Below are positions 27,576 through 35,675 of a DNA stretch of 64,000 nucleotides, piece after piece. The notes under the pieces were generated by a model. That model was not told the DNA's origin. It made no database searches and saw only the letters and a list, made by a program, of their open reading frames with translations. This stretch comes from an uncultured Ramlibacter sp. (GTDB taxonomy: Bacteria > Pseudomonadota > Gammaproteobacteria > Burkholderiales > Burkholderiaceae_C): contig NZ_CAKZHQ010000043.1 of the NCBI RefSeq assembly GCF_936925435.1, positions 8,859-72,858 of the forward strand, given 5' to 3'. The translations under genes and the position numbers were made by a program. Each line of letters opens with the position of its first letter. Within the stretch, counting starts at the first letter, position 1.

Positions 27576-28166
27576 ATGACCACAGTCGTTGTTGTGAGGA
27601 AGGCCGGTCAGGTCGCCATCGCCGCCGACACCCTGGTGACCTTCGGCGACACCCGGCTGGCGCACCGCTTCGAGGCCAACACCAAGATCTTCCAGGTCGA
27701 GACCGACGCCGGGCCCAGCTACATTGGCATGGCCGGCACCGTGGCCCATTTCCCGGTGCTGCGCAAGGCCCTGGGCGCGATGCCGCGCGAGCTGCTCAAG
27801 CTGACCAGCAAGGACGATGTCTTCGACACCTTCACCAAGCTGCATCCCTACCTGAAGGACAACTTCTTCCTGCAGACCAAGGAAGAAGACAGCGACCCCT
27901 ACGAGTCCAGCCAGTTCAGCGTGGTGATCGCCAATGCCAGCGGCATCTACGGCCTGTACAGCTACCGCGAGGTCTTCGAGTTCAAGGAATTCTGGGGCAT
28001 CGGTTCCGGCCGCAGCTTTGCCCTGGGCGCCATGCACGCGGCCTACGGCAAGGCCAAGACCGCCAGGGAAGTGGCGCAGGCCGGCATCGCCGCCGGCTGC
28101 GAGTTCGACCGCAACTCCGCAGGTCCCTGCGACGTGTTCACAATCAAAATGAAAGGCGCCAAATGA
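27576..28166 (+). CDS. proteasome beta/HslV-like Ntn-hydrolase homologue (possibly the BPH type)
   Basis: 196 aa. [19 protein letters not shown] (Thr directly after Met, Asp18), NTKIF (Lys37), GIGSG at 141-145. These align by eye with HslV: TTIVSVRRNGHVVIAGD..KKVRR..AIGSGG. The stop overlaps the lpdA ATG. Confidence 0.65.
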
Positions 28167-29989: not shown

Positions 29990-30454
<465 letters not shown>

Positions 30455-30476: not shown

Positions 30477-30950
30477 TCAGCGGCAGCGCAGGGGCAGCAG
30501 GCCGGCGGGCACGTCGGTCTTGTTGACGCCCTGCGCCTTCATCTTGTCCGGCGCCGTGGCCGGGCCGCACAACCACGTGATGGGAACGACAGGCGTGTCC
30601 TCCACCACCGCCGGCCGCAGGCTCAAGGTCTTGCCCAGCAGGGCCCGGTTGGCCTTGTTGCCGAAGCGGATGTGGATGGCGCCGTCCTGCACGGTCACGC
30701 TGCTGACCACCGCGTTGACGATCTTGTCCGCCTGCGGCAGGCCGGCCGCGGCGTTGTCGGCCGGCAGCGGCTGCCCCAGCAGCCAGGCCGCGGCCACGGG
30801 CGGCTTGGCAATGTCGGCCAGGGGCAGGGCCTCGGCCACCTGCTCGCGCACGATGCGGTCAAGGTAGCTGGGCAGGGCGATCAGCGAGAGGATGGCGATC
30901 ACGGCGATCACCACCATGAGCTCGATCAGGGTGAATCCGTTGCGACGCAT
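30477..30950 (-). CDS. type IV pilin (prepilin with N-terminal methylation site)
   Basis: MRRNG/FTLIELMVVIAVIAILSLIALPSY (G-F cleavage site, Glu5). C-terminal Cys...Cys loop (WLCGPATAP...PLRCR). Confidence 0.8.
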   Translation of the reverse strand: MRRNGFTLIELMVVIAVIAILSLIALPSYLDRIVREQVAEALPLADIAKPPVAAAWLLGQPLPADNAAAGLPQADKIVNAVVSSVTVQDGAIHIRFGNKANRALLGKTLSLRPAVVEDTPVVPITWLCGPATAPDKMKAQGVNKTDVPAGLLPLRCR

Positions 30951-30977: not shown

Positions 30978-31763
30978 TCAGGGCCGCACGGCCGGCGTCT
31001 CCACCGCCATGCCCATGGCGCGCGCCGCCAGGTGCAACTCCAGCGCCACCATGTCCGGGCTGTTGGCGGCAAAGGGCTCGGCTCGCACGCCGGTCAGGCA
31101 GCCGCGCAGGCGGCGTTGCAGCGAGCCCAGGCCCTGCCATTCCAGCCGGTAGACCGGGTAGCCTGTCGCATGGCCTTGCGGGATGGTGCTGCCCGCGAGC
31201 TTGCCGCCGGCCAGCTGGTCGTGGCACTGGGCACAGGACAGGTCGAGCTGGCCCAGGCGCTGTGCGAACAGCTGGGCGCCGCGCTCGCGCAGGGGCGCCA
31301 GCCGCGGGTCGGCATCGGGCGCCATCGGAAGTCCGCGCGACTGCATGGCCACATAGGTTTCCAGGCCCAGCAACTGCGCGTGTTCCGCGCCCCAGGCCGG
31401 CAGCTGCTGGTGGCGCTGGCGGCACAGGTTGATGCGCATGCCCAGGTTGACCGCGCTGGCCGAGGTCGCATCCCACGCGGGATAGCGCGCCGCCACGCCG
31501 GCCATGCTGGTGGCCGCCTCCCCGTGGCAGCTGGCGCAGGAGCGCGACTGCGGGCCCTCGGCCTTGCGCCACAGGGCCTGGCCGTCCTGCACCCAGAGCA
31601 TGGCGGGATTGGCGTTGTCGTCGCGCTGCATGGCCTGGACGTCCGGTCCCATGAAGTCGAAGCTCGAGCGGCGCGCGTCGAGGACGGGCGAGGGGGAGGG
31701 CGGGGCGGCCGCGCAACCCAGCAGCACGGCCAGCAGCGCAGTGGCGAGCGCGCGCCGGCTCAT
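30978..31763 (-). CDS. soxA: SoxA-like dihaem cytochrome c (lipobox signal)
   Basis: Real part of ORF 30978..32150: MSRRALATALLAVLLGCAAA. Two CxxCH motifs (CASCH, CAQCH). RRLRGCLTGVRAEP, the conserved Cys-ligand region. ATG overlaps the soxZ stop. Confidence 0.8.
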   Translation of the reverse strand: MSRRALATALLAVLLGCAAAPPSPSPVLDARRSSFDFMGPDVQAMQRDDNANPAMLWVQDGQALWRKAEGPQSRSCASCHGEAATSMAGVAARYPAWDATSASAVNLGMRINLCRQRHQQLPAWGAEHAQLLGLETYVAMQSRGLPMAPDADPRLAPLRERGAQLFAQRLGQLDLSCAQCHDQLAGGKLAGSTIPQGHATGYPVYRLEWQGLGSLQRRLRGCLTGVRAEPFAANSPDMVALELHLAARAMGMAVETPAVRP

Positions 31764-32080
31764 GTGACGGACAAATCCACGCGCTCGGTCTGGGCGAAGC
31801 CGTTGTCGCCCTGCCACTCGAACTCCAGCGTGCCGGAGTCGGTCGCCAGCAGGTGGAACTGCAGGTAGGGATTGGCCGACACGGCGGAGAACAGTTCGGC
31901 CGTGAACACCGTCTCGCCGTTGTAGCGGCAGGCAAAGCGCTGGATGATGTCGCGCGGCTGCACCTTGCCCTCGGCGTTGGGCCGGAAACCCGTCTCCATG
32001 GGATGGGCGATGGTGGCGCGGATCTCCACCACCTCGCCCCGGCGCGCGGTCTTGGGGACGCTCAGCAGGGTGCGGGCCAT
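31760..32080 (-). CDS. soxZ: SoxZ-like carrier-complex subunit
   Basis: 106 aa. GEVVEIRATIAHPMETGFR...NGETVF...SANPYLQF, the SoxZ pattern. Confidence 0.8.
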   Translation of the reverse strand: MARTLLSVPKTARRGEVVEIRATIAHPMETGFRPNAEGKVQPRDIIQRFACRYNGETVFTAELFSAVSANPYLQFHLLATDSGTLEFEWQGDNGFAQTERVDLSVT

Positions 32081-32544
32081 CAGGGATCGCCCTCGATGCA
32101 GGCCGCCAGCACCACCACCACATCCATGCTGTCCGACCAGAAGCTGCCATCGCTCATGCGGGCGACGGCCACCAGCTTCTGGCTGGTCGCCAGGCGGACG
32201 CGGGTGGCCACCGCCGCCTTGCCGGCGCGCGGGCCCAGCGTGAACTTCGCCACCTCGCGCTGCGGGTTGCGCTCGTTGTAGATGGCGATCGCTGCCACAT
32301 GGTCGGCCGCTGTCATCGGGCTGTCGACGCTCACGCTGACCGGCACCACGTTGCCGTTGTCCACCAGTTTGGCGACCTCGAGTCTGACGCGGCCGCGCTG
32401 GATGAGGGCGCCGCCGGAATACGCTGCAAGCGCGGCGGCGAGCTCGGGCGCATCCTGGCTGCGCGCCGGCGTTGCCAGCACCATGGCGGTGCCCCAGGCC
32501 AGCAGCTCGCGGCGGCGGGTCAAGAGCGGTCTGGAGGCTGCCAT
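32080..32544 (-). CDS. SoxY-related carrier protein with non-canonical C-terminal arm (..VVLAACIEGDP)
   Basis: Real part of ORF 32080..32814: MAASRPLLTRRRELLAWG (twin-arginine signal), DNGNVVPVSVSV SoxY core. It ends LAACIEGDP rather than GGCGG. Confidence 0.75.
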   Translation of the reverse strand: MAASRPLLTRRRELLAWGTAMVLATPARSQDAPELAAALAAYSGGALIQRGRVRLEVAKLVDNGNVVPVSVSVDSPMTAADHVAAIAIYNERNPQREVAKFTLGPRAGKAAVATRVRLATSQKLVAVARMSDGSFWSDSMDVVVVLAACIEGDP

Positions 32545-32546
32545 GG

Positions 32547-32978
32547 CTAGCGCAGCGTGACCAGGTAGGCCACGACGTCTTCCACCTGCTGGGCGCTGAA
32601 CACAGGCTTGCCCTGCCAGGCCGTGCCGACGCGCGTCAGGCCGTCCGTGCGGTGGTAGGCCGGCATGATGGATTGCGGATGGAGCAGGCGCGCATCCACC
32701 AGGCGCAGGCGCAGCTGGCCCGCGCTCCAGCGTGCGCCCGTGCCGGCCAGGTCCGGCGCCAGATTGCCCTGGAAGCGTTCTTCGGGGATGGGCGCTGTAT
32801 GGCACAGCAGGCACAGGCCGAGCTGGCGGTTGGCGACGATGGCGCGGCCGCGGGCCGCGTCGCCCACCGCAGCGGCCAGCGGCTGGGCTATGGCATCGCC
32901 GGTCACGCTGTACGTGGCCAGGACCTGGGCCTTCGCGCCCAGCGATGCAAGCAGGAGGGCCAGCGCCACCAACTGCAT
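32547..32978 (-). CDS. SoxX-like monohaem cytochrome c
   Basis: 143 aa. Sec signal, CLLCH haem motif, IMPAYH (candidate Met ligand), VVAYLVTL C-terminus. Confidence 0.7.
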   Translation of the reverse strand: MQLVALALLLASLGAKAQVLATYSVTGDAIAQPLAAAVGDAARGRAIVANRQLGLCLLCHTAPIPEERFQGNLAPDLAGTGARWSAGQLRLRLVDARLLHPQSIMPAYHRTDGLTRVGTAWQGKPVFSAQQVEDVVAYLVTLR

Positions 32979-32988
32979 GGCGCGGTGC

Positions 32989-35175
32989 TCAGGCCCGCTT
33001 GAGGCTGTGGTTCTTCAGCGGCAGGTCGCGGATGCGCTTGCCGGTGGCCGCATAGACCGCGTTGAGCACGGCTGGCGCCGCCACCGCGATGGTCGGCTCG
33101 CCGACACCGCCCCAGAAGCCGCCGCTGGCGACGATCACCGTCTCCACCGCCGGCATGTGCTGCATCTGGACCACAGGGTAGGTGCTGAAGTTGTCCTGCT
33201 CCATGCGGCCGTCCTTGAGCGTGCATTCGCCGAACAGCGCCGCCGACAGGCCGTAGGCGAACGAGCCCTCGACCTGGGCTTCGATCTGCTGCGGGTTGAC
33301 CGCATGGCCGCAGTCGGTGGCCGCGACGATGCGGTGCACCTTGAGCTCGCCCTCGGCGTTGACCGAAACTTCGGCACAGGCCGCCACATAGCTGCCAAAG
33401 CCCATGGTCTGGGCCAGGCCGCGAAACACCTTCTGGCCGCCCACGTCGGGTGGCGGCGTGCCCCATTTGACGCGCTCGGCCACGGCATTGAGCACGGCCA
33501 GGTGCTTGGGATGGCTGGCCATCAGCTTGCGGCGCAGGGCCAGCGGGTCCTGTTTGGTCTCGACCGCGATCTCGTCGATGAAGGACTCCAGGTAGATCGC
33601 GTTCTGGTTCAGGTTGACGCCGCGCCAGAAGCCCGGCGGCACCGGCGGGTTGCGCATTGCATGGTCGATCAGCAGGTTGGGAAAGCTGTAGCCAATGGAG
33701 GCTTCGGGTCCCGGCGCGTTCAGGCCCTGGAAGACCACCGGATCGCGCCCGCCCTGCAAGGCCTGGGTCGAGATGCCGGCCAGGATGGACTGGCCCGAGA
33801 TGCGCATGTGCAGGGCCGTGATGTTGCCCTGGGCATCGAGCCCGGCCTGCATGCGGCACTGCGTGACCGGGTGGAAGCGGCCGTGCAGCATGTCTTCTTC
33901 GCGGCTCCACAGCAGCTTGACCGGCACGCCGGGCATCTGCTTGGCGATGTCCACCGCCTGGCGCACCCAGTCGTGCACCGCGCCGCGCCGGCCGAAGCCG
34001 CCGCCCAGGTGCAGCTTGTAGACCTCGCACTGGGCCGCCGGCAGGCCCGAGGCCTCCGAGGTGGCGGCCAGGGCCGCTTCCCCGTTTTGGGTGGGTGTCC
34101 AGACCTCGCAGCGCTGGGGCGTCCAGCGCGCCGTGGCGTTCATGGGCTCCATGGTCGCGTGGTTCTGGTGCGGGTAGGAGTAGAAAGCCTCGATGCGGCG
34201 CGGGGCTGAGGCCAGGGCGGCTCTGGCGTCACCGTTCTGGTTGCCGACCACGGCGTCAGTGGCGTCAAAGCCGGCCCGCAGGGTCTTGGCCACGTCGACG
34301 CTGGACAGGCCGGCGTTCGGGCCGTTGTCCCATTCGATGGGCAGGGCGTCCAGCGCCGTCTTGGCGCGCCACCAAGTGTCGGCGATGACGGCCACGGCCG
34401 AATCGCCGACCCGCACCACCTTCTTGATGCCGGGGCGCTTCTCGATCGCGGCGGCATTGAAGCTTTTGAGCTTGCCGCCAAAGACCGGGCAGTCCTTGAT
34501 GGCGGCATTGAGCAGGCCGGGCAGCTTGAGGTCGGCGCCATAGACCTGCTTGCCGGTGACCTTCTCGACCGTGTCCAGCCGCGCCATGCGCTTGCCCACC
34601 AGCTTCCAGTCTTTCGGGTCCTTGAGCGCCACATCGGTGGGCACGGCCAGCTTGCCGGCGGCATCGGCCACCTGGCCGTAGCGCAGCGTGCGGCCGCTGG
34701 GCACATGGGTGATGACGCTGTTGGCGGCGCGGCAGTCCGCCGCCGGCACGCTCCATTGCGTGGCCGCGGCCTGGACCAGCATGGTGCGGGCGGCCGCGCC
34801 GCCCTTGCGCACGTAGTCGTGCGACTCGCGGATGCCGCGGCTGCCGCCGGTGGAGAAGTTGCCCCAGGCCCGGTTGCGCGCCAGGTTCTGGCCGGGTGTC
34901 GGGTATTCGGTCGTCACCTTGGCCCAGTTGCACTCGAGTTCTTCGGCCACCAACTGGGCCAGACCGGTCAGGCTGCCCTGGCCCATCTCGGAGCGGGCGA
35001 TGCGGATCACCACGGTGTCGTCGGGCCGCACCACGACCCAGGCATTGATTTCAGGGGCGGCCGCGCCTTGCGCCGCCGCCTCACCGGCCAAGGGGATGTG
35101 GAAGGCCACGACCAGCCCGCTGGCAGCGGACGCCTGTAAGAAGCCGCGGCGGCGCAGCGATGCCTGGGCGCTCAT
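32989..35175 (-). CDS. molybdopterin-binding subunit of an IorB / aldehyde-oxidase-type hydroxylase (Tat-exported)
   Basis: Real part of ORF 32989..35388: [20 protein letters not shown] (Tat signal), [29 protein letters not shown] motifs. ATG overlaps the small-subunit stop. Confidence 0.85.
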
Positions 35176-35675
35176 GTCGTGCTCCCGTCGGCGTGCTGGA
35201 TGGCCAGGGCGGCGCTTTTGGTGTTGCCGCCACGGGCCACGACCTTGATGGCGGCGCGGATGCGGTTGTAGGTGCCGCAGCGGCAGATGTTGGTCATCGC
35301 CTCGTTGATGTCGGCGTCGCTGGGATTGGGCTTGTCGCGCAGCAGGGCGACGGCCGTCATGATCATGCCGCACTGGCAGTAGCCGCACTGCGGCACGTCC
35401 AGCTGGGCCCAGGCCTTTTGCACCGGGTGCGAGCCGTCGGGCGAGAGCCCCTCAATGGTGACGATCTTCTCGGCGGCGCCGACCGTGGACACCGGCCGCA
35501 CGCAGCTGCGGGTGGGGACGCCGTTGATGTGCACAGTGCAGGCGCCGCAGGCGGCGATGCCGCAGCCGTACTTGGTGCCCGTCAGGCCCAGCTGCTCGCG
35601 CAGCACCCACAGCAGGGGCGTGTCCTGCTCCGCCTCGAAATCGCGCACCGCGCCGTTGACGTTGAGTTTCGCCAT
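35172..35675 (-). CDS. (2Fe-2S)-binding small subunit of the Mo-hydroxylase (IorA-like)
   Basis: 167 aa. [12 protein letters not shown] and QCGYCQCG...CRCGTY, two [2Fe-2S] cysteine clusters. Confidence 0.9.

What the first reader, a model, noticed from the sequence alone, without database searches (positions are those of the whole stretch)
32080..32544. SoxY-like carrier ends in ...VVVLAACIEGDP instead of the GGCGG swinging arm
Seen: the protein has a twin-arginine signal and a SoxY-like core (DNGNVVPVSVSV..., FTLGPRAG...). Its C-terminus is LAACIEGDP. The only late cysteine sits 6 residues from the end, flanked by Ala and acidic residues rather than glycines.

Established: in characterised SoxY the substrate is carried on the Cys of a flexible C-terminal GGCGG peptide.

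Inference: a different arm implies different partner enzymes and/or a different tethered substrate. From memory, an annotation label 'SoxY-related AACIE arm protein' exists in NCBI protein-family naming, which would make the family recognised but functionally uncharacterised. This needs verification.
Basis: partly seen in the sequence, partly recalled or inferred. Interest (0 to 1): 0.6.

Follow-up and report, generated by a model that had tools for sequence, protein, structure and literature searches.

The report
AACIE-arm SoxY carrier, molybdoenzyme-linked
This gene encodes an ordinary member of a named but never-tested family of SoxY-like sulfur-carrier proteins whose cysteine arm reads AACIE instead of GGCGG; the family is always encoded with its own SoxXA cytochromes and a periplasmic molybdenum enzyme, not with the usual thiosulfate-oxidation enzymes.

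Summary
Window 32080-32544 (minus strand) encodes a 154-residue Tat-signal protein with a SoxY fold. Its only cysteine (Cys149) lies in a C-terminal LAACIEGDP tail.

It passes NCBIfam TIGR04487, "SoxY-related AACIE arm protein" (197 bits, cut-off 172). It fails the true-SoxY model (88 bits, cut-off 125). The same genome, a Ramlibacter, has a complete canonical soxCDYZAXB cluster with a GGCGG SoxY on another contig.

The gene is fourth in a tightly coupled six-gene operon, iorA-iorB-soxX'-soxY'-soxZ'-soxA'.
- That order is kept in all 80 closest genome loci: 69 are complete and 11 are cut by contig ends.
- It is also kept in 12 of 12 divergent carriers with [AS]AC arms from Bradyrhizobium, Polynucleobacter and Hyphomonas, often with a sulfide-dehydrogenase flavoprotein (FccB) inserted.
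- Six module-bearing genomes have no SoxB.

The module was mentioned once in the literature (Starkeya novella "second sox cluster", 2013), where it was not induced by thiosulfate. No function has been tested.

My best reading is that this is a dedicated cysteine-arm sulfur carrier. It is loaded by SoxXA' (and/or FccB) and serviced by the molybdenum enzyme instead of SoxB and SoxCD.

This scan has already reported the same family and module at least ten times on other DNA. Verdict: real, already named, function open.

The parts
32080..32544 (-). soxY' : 154-aa SoxY-related AACIE-arm carrier (the finding)
   Evidence: Translation. TIGR04487 scores 197 bits, above the cut-off of 172, and TIGR04488 scores 88, below 125. 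Pfam SoxY match. SoxY fold.
32455..32544 (-). Tat-type signal peptide (residues 1 to about 30, TRRRELL motif)
   Evidence: Read from the sequence. RR is invariant in alignments. The cleavage site is inferred, not tested.
32083..32109 (-). C-terminal arm LAACIEGDP; the Cys149 codon is at 32098-32100
   Evidence: The arm is non-regular in the AF2 model, and pLDDT falls from above 95 to about 61 after the last strand (residues 135-145).
31760..32080 (-). soxZ' : partner of the carrier; its ATG overlaps the soxY' stop
   Evidence: TIGR04490 88 bits (cut-off 76) and Pfam SoxZ. Junction sequence.
30978..31763 (-). soxA' : dihaem SoxA-type cytochrome; ATGA overlap with soxZ'
   Evidence: TIGR04484 220 bits. 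Two CxxCH motifs and both axial-Cys positions align with Rhodovulum SoxA 1H31. Only 28% identical to the genome's canonical SoxA.
32547..32978 (-). soxX' : monohaem SoxX-type cytochrome; its stop lies 2 nt before the soxY' start
   Evidence: TIGR04485 77 bits, cut-off 61.
32989..35175 (-). iorB-like Tat-exported molybdopterin-binding subunit (xanthine-oxidase family)
   Evidence: Pfam MoCoBD_1 and MoCoBD_2. Closest solved relative is 8GY3_C, the large subunit of an aldehyde dehydrogenase, aligned end to end. GGGFGR and WGGVGEP are invariant in 36 orthologues.
35172..35675 (-). iorA-like 2x[2Fe-2S] small subunit; ATGA overlap with iorB
   Evidence: Pfam Fer2_2 and Fer2. Conserved position in every locus examined.

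Best explanation
The protein is a genuine, intact member of the AACIE-arm SoxY family (TIGR04487). It is exported by the Tat pathway and pairs with the SoxZ' encoded next to it. It presents its single cysteine (Cys149) on a short, less ordered C-terminal tail.

It is the dedicated carrier of a self-contained periplasmic module, IorA-IorB-(FccB)-SoxX'-SoxY'-SoxZ'-SoxA'. This module is separate from the thiosulfate-oxidising SoxXAYZB(CD) system, which the same genome also has.

Proposed mechanism:
1. The module's own SoxXA' cytochrome oxidatively couples a sulfur anion, most likely sulfide-derived sulfane sulfur or thiosulfate, to Cys149. Where FccB is present it does this too, or instead.
2. 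The carrier then presents the adduct to the xanthine-oxidase-family molybdenum enzyme IorAB. IorAB takes the place that SoxB and SoxCD hold in the classical pathway.
3. The AAC-[I/V/T]-[E/D] arm, in place of GGCGG, is the recognition feature that keeps this carrier on its own partners.

Shown here: family membership, the SoxY fold, conservation of the arm, strict gene linkage, joint presence and absence with IorB, independence from SoxB, and an intact SoxA' active-site signature.

Inferred only: the cargo, the loading step, and that IorAB acts on the loaded arm.
For: - Family and fold: TIGR04487 above cut-off, true-SoxY model below cut-off. SoxY fold.
- Arm: 120 of 120 best homologues carry AAC[ILV][ED]. 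Most of the top 150 representatives at 50% identity carry x[AS]AC[ILVT][ED].
- Operon: overlapping or 2-10 nt junctions across the six genes.
- Linkage: the same six-gene order holds in all 80 closest species-genome loci, 69 complete and 11 cut by contig ends, despite different flanks in Comamonadaceae and Oxalobacteraceae. In a 401-genome phylum sample, 12 of 12 carriers with [AS]AC arms lie in IorAB-(FccB)-SoxXYZA modules. None of the 28 carriers with GGCGG or related arms do.
- One clade: all 30 IorAB-linked carriers fall on one side of one branch (support 84/70; 83% of bootstrap trees).
- Joint gain and loss: five same-genus genomes of at least 99% completeness that lack the carrier have only IorB paralogues at 27-41% identity. 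Carrier-bearing relatives have 79-87%.
- Independence from classical Sox: 6 of 24 module-bearing genomes have no SoxB. The five isolates among them have no SoxY that passes the GGCGG model. All six have FccB directly beside the module.
- Sulfur link: FccB, with Pfam FCSD domains, is inserted between iorB and soxX' in 6 loci and adjacent in 15 of 80 loci.
- Competent loader: SoxA' keeps both haem motifs and both axial cysteines.
- Docking model of IorB+IorA+SoxY': weak support, score 0.45 against a best control of 0.01. The mark was reached by 58 of 80 solved complexes and 2 of 110 mismatched pairs. At 0.60 or under, only 7 of the 80 solved complexes reached it, and so did both mismatches. The runs agree in at least 82% of contacts and the partner pLDDT is at least 80.
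- Literature: in Starkeya novella the same kind of cluster, soxX2Y2Z2A2F2 plus a xanthine-oxidase-family Mo enzyme, is not induced by thiosulfate (PMC3797975). In B. diazoefficiens only soxY1 is needed for thiosulfate oxidation (PMC5748708). Bradyrhizobium japonicum-group genomes encode TIGR04487 members.
Against: - There is no experiment on any member.
- No xanthine-oxidase-family enzyme is known to act on a protein-bound sulfur adduct. Their established chemistry is hydroxylation of aldehyde or heteroaromatic carbon.
- The complex prediction is only weak, and no interface was returned. Insertion of the arm into the Mo funnel is therefore not shown.
- In S. novella the SoxAX2 and SoxYZ2 proteins were not detected under any tested condition, so the inducing substrate is unknown.
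- I did not verify that S. novella SoxY2 or B. diazoefficiens SoxY2 carry an AAC arm.
- Basal members of the clade (L020, L023) end in GCG(T) and lack adjacent SoxXA. The AAC arm is therefore not strictly required for the IorAB association.
Confidence: 0.6

Rival explanations
1. The molybdenum enzyme is an ordinary periplasmic aldehyde or N-heterocycle dehydrogenase. SoxX'/SoxA' merely replace the missing cytochrome c subunit as its electron acceptors. SoxY'Z' is an accessory rather than a substrate carrier. It could, for example, be a persulfide donor that keeps the Mo=S (sulfido) ligand of the exported enzyme intact, or a thiol redox switch.
For: The closest solved relative of IorB is 8GY3, described in the PDB as the large subunit of an aldehyde dehydrogenase. 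From my own knowledge, unchecked here, this is a Gluconobacter membrane-bound enzyme with a dedicated cytochrome c subunit. The module has no such subunit. The motif I take to be the XO-family catalytic Glu (GVGEP) is invariant. A persulfide source (FccB, SoxXA') next to an enzyme that needs a sulfido ligand is chemically sensible; that is inference.
Against: SoxA' keeps the cysteine-ligated active-site signature of a sulfur-coupling enzyme, not just haems. Five or six genes are a costly maintenance system for one enzyme. Two other IorAB paralogues in the same genome (37-39% identity) have no SoxYZ beside them and no CxxCH-bearing ORF in the few kb inspected. So an IorAB pair does not in general come with SoxYZ.
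Confidence: 0.2
2. It is a spare or iso-functional Sox paralogue. SoxXA'-SoxY'Z' would widen the substrate range of the canonical pathway by handing its adducts to SoxB and SoxCD encoded elsewhere. The neighbouring IorAB would be functionally unrelated.
For: The window's genome, and 18 of 24 module-bearing genomes tested, do have SoxB. SoxZ', SoxA' and SoxX' all pass the NCBIfam 'true' Sox models. This idea has been raised in the literature for duplicate sox genes (discussed in PMC3797975).
Against: Six module-bearing genomes lack SoxB, and five of them lack a GGCGG SoxY. IorAB linkage is strict across two proteobacterial classes and the two are gained and lost together. The arm differs exactly where SoxB and SoxCD must accept it. 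The S. novella cluster is not induced by thiosulfate, and only soxY1 is essential in B. diazoefficiens.
Confidence: 0.1
3. It is a degenerate or pseudogenised SoxY, or an assembly or frameshift artefact that hides a GGCGG end.
For: None beyond the unusual end. An out-of-frame 'GCGGG' string exists nearby.
Against: The motif is conserved in hundreds of homologues. The Tat signal and fold are intact. The gene is translationally coupled to its neighbours. The out-of-frame string comes from (GTG)4 valine codons and is not C-terminal. Contigs from three runs show no indel.
Confidence: 0.01

Closest known systems
NCBIfam TIGR04487 (SoxY_para_1), 'SoxY-related AACIE arm protein'
   Same: It scores above the curated cut-off (197 against 172). 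It has the same fold, Tat signal and C-terminal AACIE motif. Relatives in Ramlibacter, Polaromonas, Bradyrhizobium and Polynucleobacter already carry this name.
   Different: Nothing substantive; this is an ordinary member. The curated cut-off misses divergent members of the same IorAB-linked clade. These have arms such as AACVVL, AACVIG, SACIDGG and ESACLDGS, score 113-165 bits, and are sometimes named plain 'SoxY'.
Canonical SoxY of the thiosulfate-oxidising Sox system (TIGR04488; Paracoccus pantotrophus SoxYZ, PDB 2OX5/2OXG)
   Same: Same beta-sandwich fold (TM 0.86). Tat export. A SoxZ partner. A single carrier cysteine at the aligned position. A SoxXA-type loader encoded alongside.
   Different: 33% identity to the genome's own GGCGG SoxY. 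It fails the model cut-off (88 against 125). The arm is AAC-I-E-G-D-P, with alanines for glycines and a longer acidic tail. It is never encoded with SoxB or SoxCD and always with an XO-family Mo enzyme.
'Second sox gene cluster' of Starkeya novella, soxX2Y2Z2A2F2 (Snov_1982-1977) with the xanthine-oxidase-family Mo enzyme Snov_1975/1976 (Kappler et al. 2013, PMC3797975)
   Same: Same gene content: SoxX, SoxY, SoxZ, SoxA and a two-subunit XO-family Mo enzyme in one operon, without SoxB or SoxCD.
   Different: soxF2 (FccB) is part of the S. novella cluster. Here fccAB lies on another contig (C26:13014-14604). The paper does not discuss the arm, and I could not check the S. novella SoxY2 sequence.
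NCBIfam TIGR04557, quinoprotein dehydrogenase-associated SoxYZ-like carrier
   Same: It is another SoxY/SoxZ-derived carrier tied by its family name to a periplasmic dehydrogenase rather than to SoxB. It gives weak hits to both SoxY' and SoxZ'.
   Different: It is a fused SoxY-SoxZ protein. Scores here are far below its cut-off (53 and 45 against 140). It goes with a different enzyme partner (PQQ rather than molybdenum), and its name indicates no SoxXA.

Membership tests
TIGR04487 SoxY-related AACIE arm protein | HMM score at or above the curated cut-off (172 bits) | tested here: met
   197.1 bits, E 1.2e-58, covering 2-146 of 146 profile positions.
TIGR04487 SoxY-related AACIE arm protein | C-terminal AAC-I-E type arm in place of GGCGG | tested here: met
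   The protein ends in LAACIEGDP. The cysteine column aligns with the carrier Cys of canonical SoxY.
TIGR04487 SoxY-related AACIE arm protein | SoxY fold with Tat signal and an adjacent SoxZ partner | tested here: met
   PF13501 at 101 bits. Fold match to 2OX5_Y. RR motif. soxZ' overlaps the stop codon.
True SoxY (TIGR04488, thiosulfate oxidation carrier) | HMM score at or above 125 bits | tested here: not met
   88.3 bits. The genome's real SoxY on contig C22 scores 170.9.
True SoxY (TIGR04488, thiosulfate oxidation carrier) | GGCGG swinging arm | tested here: not met
   The arm is AACIEGDP. No in-frame or hidden GGCGG exists.
True SoxY (TIGR04488, thiosulfate oxidation carrier) | Encoded with SoxB (and usually SoxCD) | tested here: not met
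   SoxB and SoxCD are on contig C22 with their own SoxYZ. None of the 12 AAC-arm loci have SoxB nearby.
Any SoxY-type carrier | Covalent binding of a sulfur substrate on the arm cysteine | not testable with these tools
   This needs mass spectrometry of the protein incubated with SoxXA' or FccB and candidate substrates.
IorAB-SoxXYZA module (S. novella 'second sox cluster' type) | XO-family Mo enzyme, SoxX, SoxY, SoxZ and SoxA in one operon, without SoxB or SoxCD | tested here: met
   Six same-strand genes with overlaps or gaps of 10 nt or less. The same order is found in 69 of 69 complete related loci.
IorAB-SoxXYZA module (S. novella 'second sox cluster' type) | SoxF/FccB flavoprotein inside or beside the cluster | tested here: not met
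   There is no FccB beside this copy; fccAB lies at C26:13014-14604. FccB is adjacent in 15 of 80 close loci and in 7 of 12 distant loci.

The most novel reading that the evidence does not exclude
The xanthine-oxidase-family enzyme IorAB works on the sulfur bound to the AAC arm. It would oxidise carrier-bound sulfane sulfur with water as the oxygen donor, acting as a functional analogue of SoxCD. Together with SoxXA' and FccB this would form a SoxB-independent periplasmic route from sulfide to sulfite or thiosulfate. It would be the first protein-bound and the first sulfur substrate for this enzyme family.
Probability: 0.2. Interest if true: 0.8.

Novelty: new member of a known kind. Interest (0 to 1): 0.38.

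Why it matters
The gene itself is routine, because the family already has a curated name. What remains open is the function of a very widespread module. It occurs in hundreds of soil and freshwater Beta- and Alphaproteobacteria species, including Bradyrhizobium, Polaromonas and Polynucleobacter. The module pairs Sox-type carrier chemistry with a molybdenum hydroxylase.

Genome surveys currently count these genes as extra "sox paralogues" or annotate them as thiosulfate-oxidation SoxY. This overstates thiosulfate-oxidising potential. If the molybdenum enzyme really acts on the loaded arm, this would be a new branch of periplasmic sulfur oxidation and new chemistry for the xanthine-oxidase family.

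Tried and rejected
I obtained contexts of distant representatives through the genome search and the fetch from genomes instead.
- A first alignment (A2) was too diverse for the search for related loci. A narrower one (A3) worked.
- Masuda et al. 2010 (PMC2849208) is not held. I could not confirm that B. diazoefficiens soxY2 is the AAC-arm gene. I rely on PMC5748708 and on the presence of TIGR04487 members in B. japonicum-group genomes.
- Literature searches for 'AACIE', for SoxY with isoquinoline oxidoreductase, for sox genes with aldehyde oxidase and flavocytochrome, and for 'soxXYZA' found nothing relevant.
- Pfam scans of the neighbours of the basal GCG-ended, IorAB-linked carrier in L020 were uninformative; I may have picked wrong frames.
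- I looked for a conserved lipobox on SoxA' (LLGC here). A loose pattern matches only 27 of 96 orthologues, so it is not a module feature.
- Flank clustering showed that NlpC/P60, the PQQ sugar dehydrogenase, lpdA, the pilin gene and the EVE gene are lineage synteny, not parts of the module.
- The out-of-frame 'GCGGG' near the 3' end was considered as a hidden arm and rejected.

Full report
**Observation.** The open frame at window 32080-32544 on the minus strand translates to 154 residues.
- The N-terminus has a twin-arginine motif (TRRRELL). The two arginines are invariant in every alignment of relatives.
- The core matches Pfam SoxY (PF13501, 101 bits) and Paracoccus SoxY by sequence (2OX5_Y, E 8e-15).
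- An AlphaFold2 model built on 39 relatives (mean pLDDT 87) superposes on 2OX5_Y with TM 0.86.
- The protein ends in VVVLAACIEGDP. Cys149 (codon 32098-32100) is the only cysteine and aligns with the carrier cysteine of canonical SoxY.
- In the model the last strand spans residues 135-145. The tail after it is irregular, with confidence falling to about 61. This fits an exposed arm.

**Not chance, decay or artefact.** All 120 best homologues in the 90%-clustered protein collection carry AAC[ILV][ED] at the same place. Among the 150 best representatives at 50% identity, most carry x[AS]AC[ILVT][ED]; canonical GGCGG ends appear only lower in the list. The only Gly-Cys-Gly string near the 3' end is an out-of-frame reading of four GTG valine codons. 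It is not C-terminal. Contigs from three DNA runs cover the region without any difference or indel, although they probably come from the source sample.

**Family.** NCBIfam TIGR04487 (SoxY_para_1, "SoxY-related AACIE arm protein") scores 197.1 bits against a cut-off of 172. The true-SoxY model TIGR04488 scores 88.3 against 125. Relatives in Ramlibacter, Polaromonas, Comamonadaceae, Bradyrhizobium and Polynucleobacter already bear that name in NCBI records.

**The genome also has the classical system.** The genome is a Ramlibacter, judged from named neighbours. Contig C22 carries soxC, soxD, a soxY ending in GGCGG (170.9 bits on TIGR04488), soxZ, soxA, soxX and soxB (858 bits). The two SoxY proteins share 33% identity and the two SoxA proteins 28%.

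**Operon context.** The gene is fourth of six same-strand genes with overlapping or near-touching ends:
1. iorA-like 2x[2Fe-2S] subunit (35172-35675)
2. iorB-like Tat-exported molybdopterin subunit of the xanthine-oxidase family (32989-35175)
3. soxX' (32547-32978)
4. soxY' (32080-32544)
5. soxZ' (31760-32080)
6. soxA' (30978-31763)

These assignments rest. SoxZ', SoxA' and SoxX' each pass the NCBIfam models for the true Sox proteins. SoxA' keeps both CxxCH motifs and both axial-cysteine positions of Rhodovulum SoxA 1H31, so it looks catalytically competent for sulfur coupling. IorB aligns end to end with 8GY3_C, the large subunit of an aldehyde dehydrogenase. Its GGGFGR and WGGVGEP motifs are invariant in 36 orthologues.

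**How general the linkage is.**
The 80 best were fetched with 10-kb flanks. In 69 of them all six genes occur in the same order. The other 11 are cut by contig ends and show nothing contradictory. The flanks differ between Comamonadaceae (NlpC/P60 and lpdA synteny) and Oxalobacteraceae, so the six genes travel as a unit.
- In an even sample of 401 genomes of the phylum, I fetched 40 SoxY-like loci. Twelve have [AS]AC arms: AACTEEVI in Bradyrhizobium; SACTEMI and SACTEEP in Polynucleobacter; AACVIG in Hyphomonas; and also AACVVL, AACVEP, SACIDGG and AACTEE. All twelve lie in IorA-IorB-(FccB)-SoxX-SoxY-SoxZ-SoxA modules. None of the other 28 do. In that group the GGCGG carriers mostly sit beside SoxB, often with SoxCD. 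Carriers ending in GGCSG, SGCGG, GGCAG and similar sit beside FccB only (organism names).
- A maximum-likelihood tree places all 30 IorAB-linked carriers on one side of a single branch (support 84/70; 83% of bootstrap trees). Two GCG-ended members that lack adjacent SoxXA are basal.
- Within Ramlibacter the carrier passes the cut-off in 7 of 25 genomes. Five genomes of at least 99% completeness that lack it have only 27-41% identical IorB paralogues, against 79-87% in carriers' genomes. Carrier and molybdenum enzyme are therefore gained and lost together.

**Relation to classical Sox and to sulfide.** Of 24 module-bearing genomes, 18 have a SoxB above cut-off and six do not. The six are four Noviherbaspirillum species, Pseudoduganella flava and one MAG. 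The five isolates also lack any SoxY that passes the GGCGG model. So the module does not depend on SoxB. All six have an FccB flavoprotein directly beside the module; its Pfam domains are those of the flavocytochrome c sulfide dehydrogenase. FccB is adjacent in 15 of the 80 close loci. It is inserted between iorB and soxX' in six of the twelve distant ones and follows soxA' in one more. In the window's genome fccAB lies elsewhere, at C26:13014-14604. This repeated association points to sulfide-derived sulfur as the cargo.

**Modelling of binding.** A three-chain prediction (IorB, IorA, mature SoxY', each with an alignment of orthologues) gave weak support.
- The median score was 0.45 against a best control of 0.01.
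- The mark was reached by 58 of 80 solved complexes and 2 of 110 mismatched pairs in the tool's calibration.
- At 0.60 or under, only 7 of those 80 solved complexes reached the mark, and both mismatches did.
- The runs agree in at least 82% of contacts, and the partner pLDDT is at least 80.
- No interface was returned, so I cannot say that the arm enters the molybdenum funnel.

Given the strict gene linkage, the prior for binding was already fair. The result nudges it up slightly and no more.

**Literature.**
- No paper in the library pairs "AACIE" with SoxY.
- Kappler et al. 2013 (PMC3797975) describe a "second sox gene cluster" in Starkeya novella, soxX2Y2Z2A2F2. They note that the operon also encodes a xanthine-oxidase-family molybdenum enzyme. 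SoxAX2 and SoxYZ2 were not detected by proteomics, and transcripts were very low on glucose, methanol or thiosulfate. The authors suggest either no function or a role under untested conditions. They do not discuss the arm.
- In Bradyrhizobium diazoefficiens, only soxY1 of the two soxY genes is essential for thiosulfate oxidation (PMC5748708, citing Masuda 2010). B. japonicum-group genomes encode TIGR04487 members, so soxY2 is probably the AAC-arm gene. I could not verify this because the 2010 paper is not held.
- A 2026 survey counts about 1,300 soxY "paralogs insulated from sox clusters" without assigning a function (PMC13500833).

**Interpretation.** The best-supported reading is that SoxY'Z' is the dedicated cysteine-arm carrier of a self-contained periplasmic module. 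SoxXA', and FccB where present, would load a sulfur anion on Cys149. The molybdenum enzyme IorAB would replace SoxB and SoxCD as the enzyme that deals with the loaded arm. The AAC-[I/V/T]-[E/D] arm would be the specificity determinant that separates this carrier from the GGCGG carrier working in the same periplasm.
- Shown here: membership, fold, arm conservation, linkage, co-inheritance, SoxB independence, and an intact SoxA' signature.
- Inferred only: the cargo, the loading step and the action of IorAB.

Rivals:
- SoxXA' may simply be the cytochrome partners of an ordinary aldehyde or heterocycle dehydrogenase, with SoxY'Z' as an accessory such as a persulfide donor for the Mo=S ligand. I cannot exclude this (about 0.2).
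- A spare Sox isoform feeding SoxB is disfavoured by the SoxB-free hosts and the published expression and knockout data (about 0.1).
- A pseudogene or artefact is excluded.

**Novelty and score.** The family is curated and named, and the module has been noticed in print. This scan has already reported the same family and module at least ten times on other genomes. The present gene is thus a new member of a known kind. The function of the module remains a real and directly testable open question, which keeps the interest moderate rather than low.

Noticed in passing
L156, L157, L164, L167, L171, L172 (phylum-sample loci): A third class of SoxYZ-like carriers has arms such as SGCGG, GGCSG, GGCAG, GGCAN, NGCK and SGCGM. 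In most of these loci they sit beside an FccB flavoprotein, with no SoxB, SoxXA or IorAB nearby (L171 shows SoxYZ only). This suggests FccB-dedicated carriers.
   Followed up: partly
L140 (Hyphomonas adhaerens), L159 (Roseateles sp.): Carriers with AACVIG and AACVEP arms lie inside IorAB-SoxXYZA modules but are named 'thiosulfate oxidation carrier protein SoxY' in NCBI records. This is probably over-annotation, because they fall below the TIGR04487 cut-off.
   Followed up: partly
window 30477-30950 and 29990-30454: A lone type IV pilin gene and an EVE-domain gene follow soxA' on the same strand. The pilin appears after the module in only a few related loci and the EVE gene in some others. Both look like lineage-specific passengers rather than module parts.
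   Followed up: partly
window 31700-31763 (SoxA' N-terminus): SoxA' here and in some Ramlibacter relatives has a lipobox-like LLGC in its signal peptide. A loose pattern matches only 27 of 96 orthologues, so a lipoprotein anchor would be a local feature at most.
   Followed up: partly
window 32101-32124: The run of GTG valine codons just before the arm reads 'GCGGGAGG' in another frame. This chance look-alike of a SoxY arm could mislead a frameshift check.
   Followed up: yes
window 27576-28166: A small proteasome/HslV-like gene lies between the PDH E2 and E3 genes and is syntenic in most Comamonadaceae loci.
   Followed up: no
G000 contigs C3:221841-224481 and C26:81603-84375: The genome holds two further IorAB-type paralogue pairs (37-39% identical large subunits). 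They have no SoxYZ beside them, and I saw no CxxCH-bearing ORF in the few kb inspected.
   Followed up: partly
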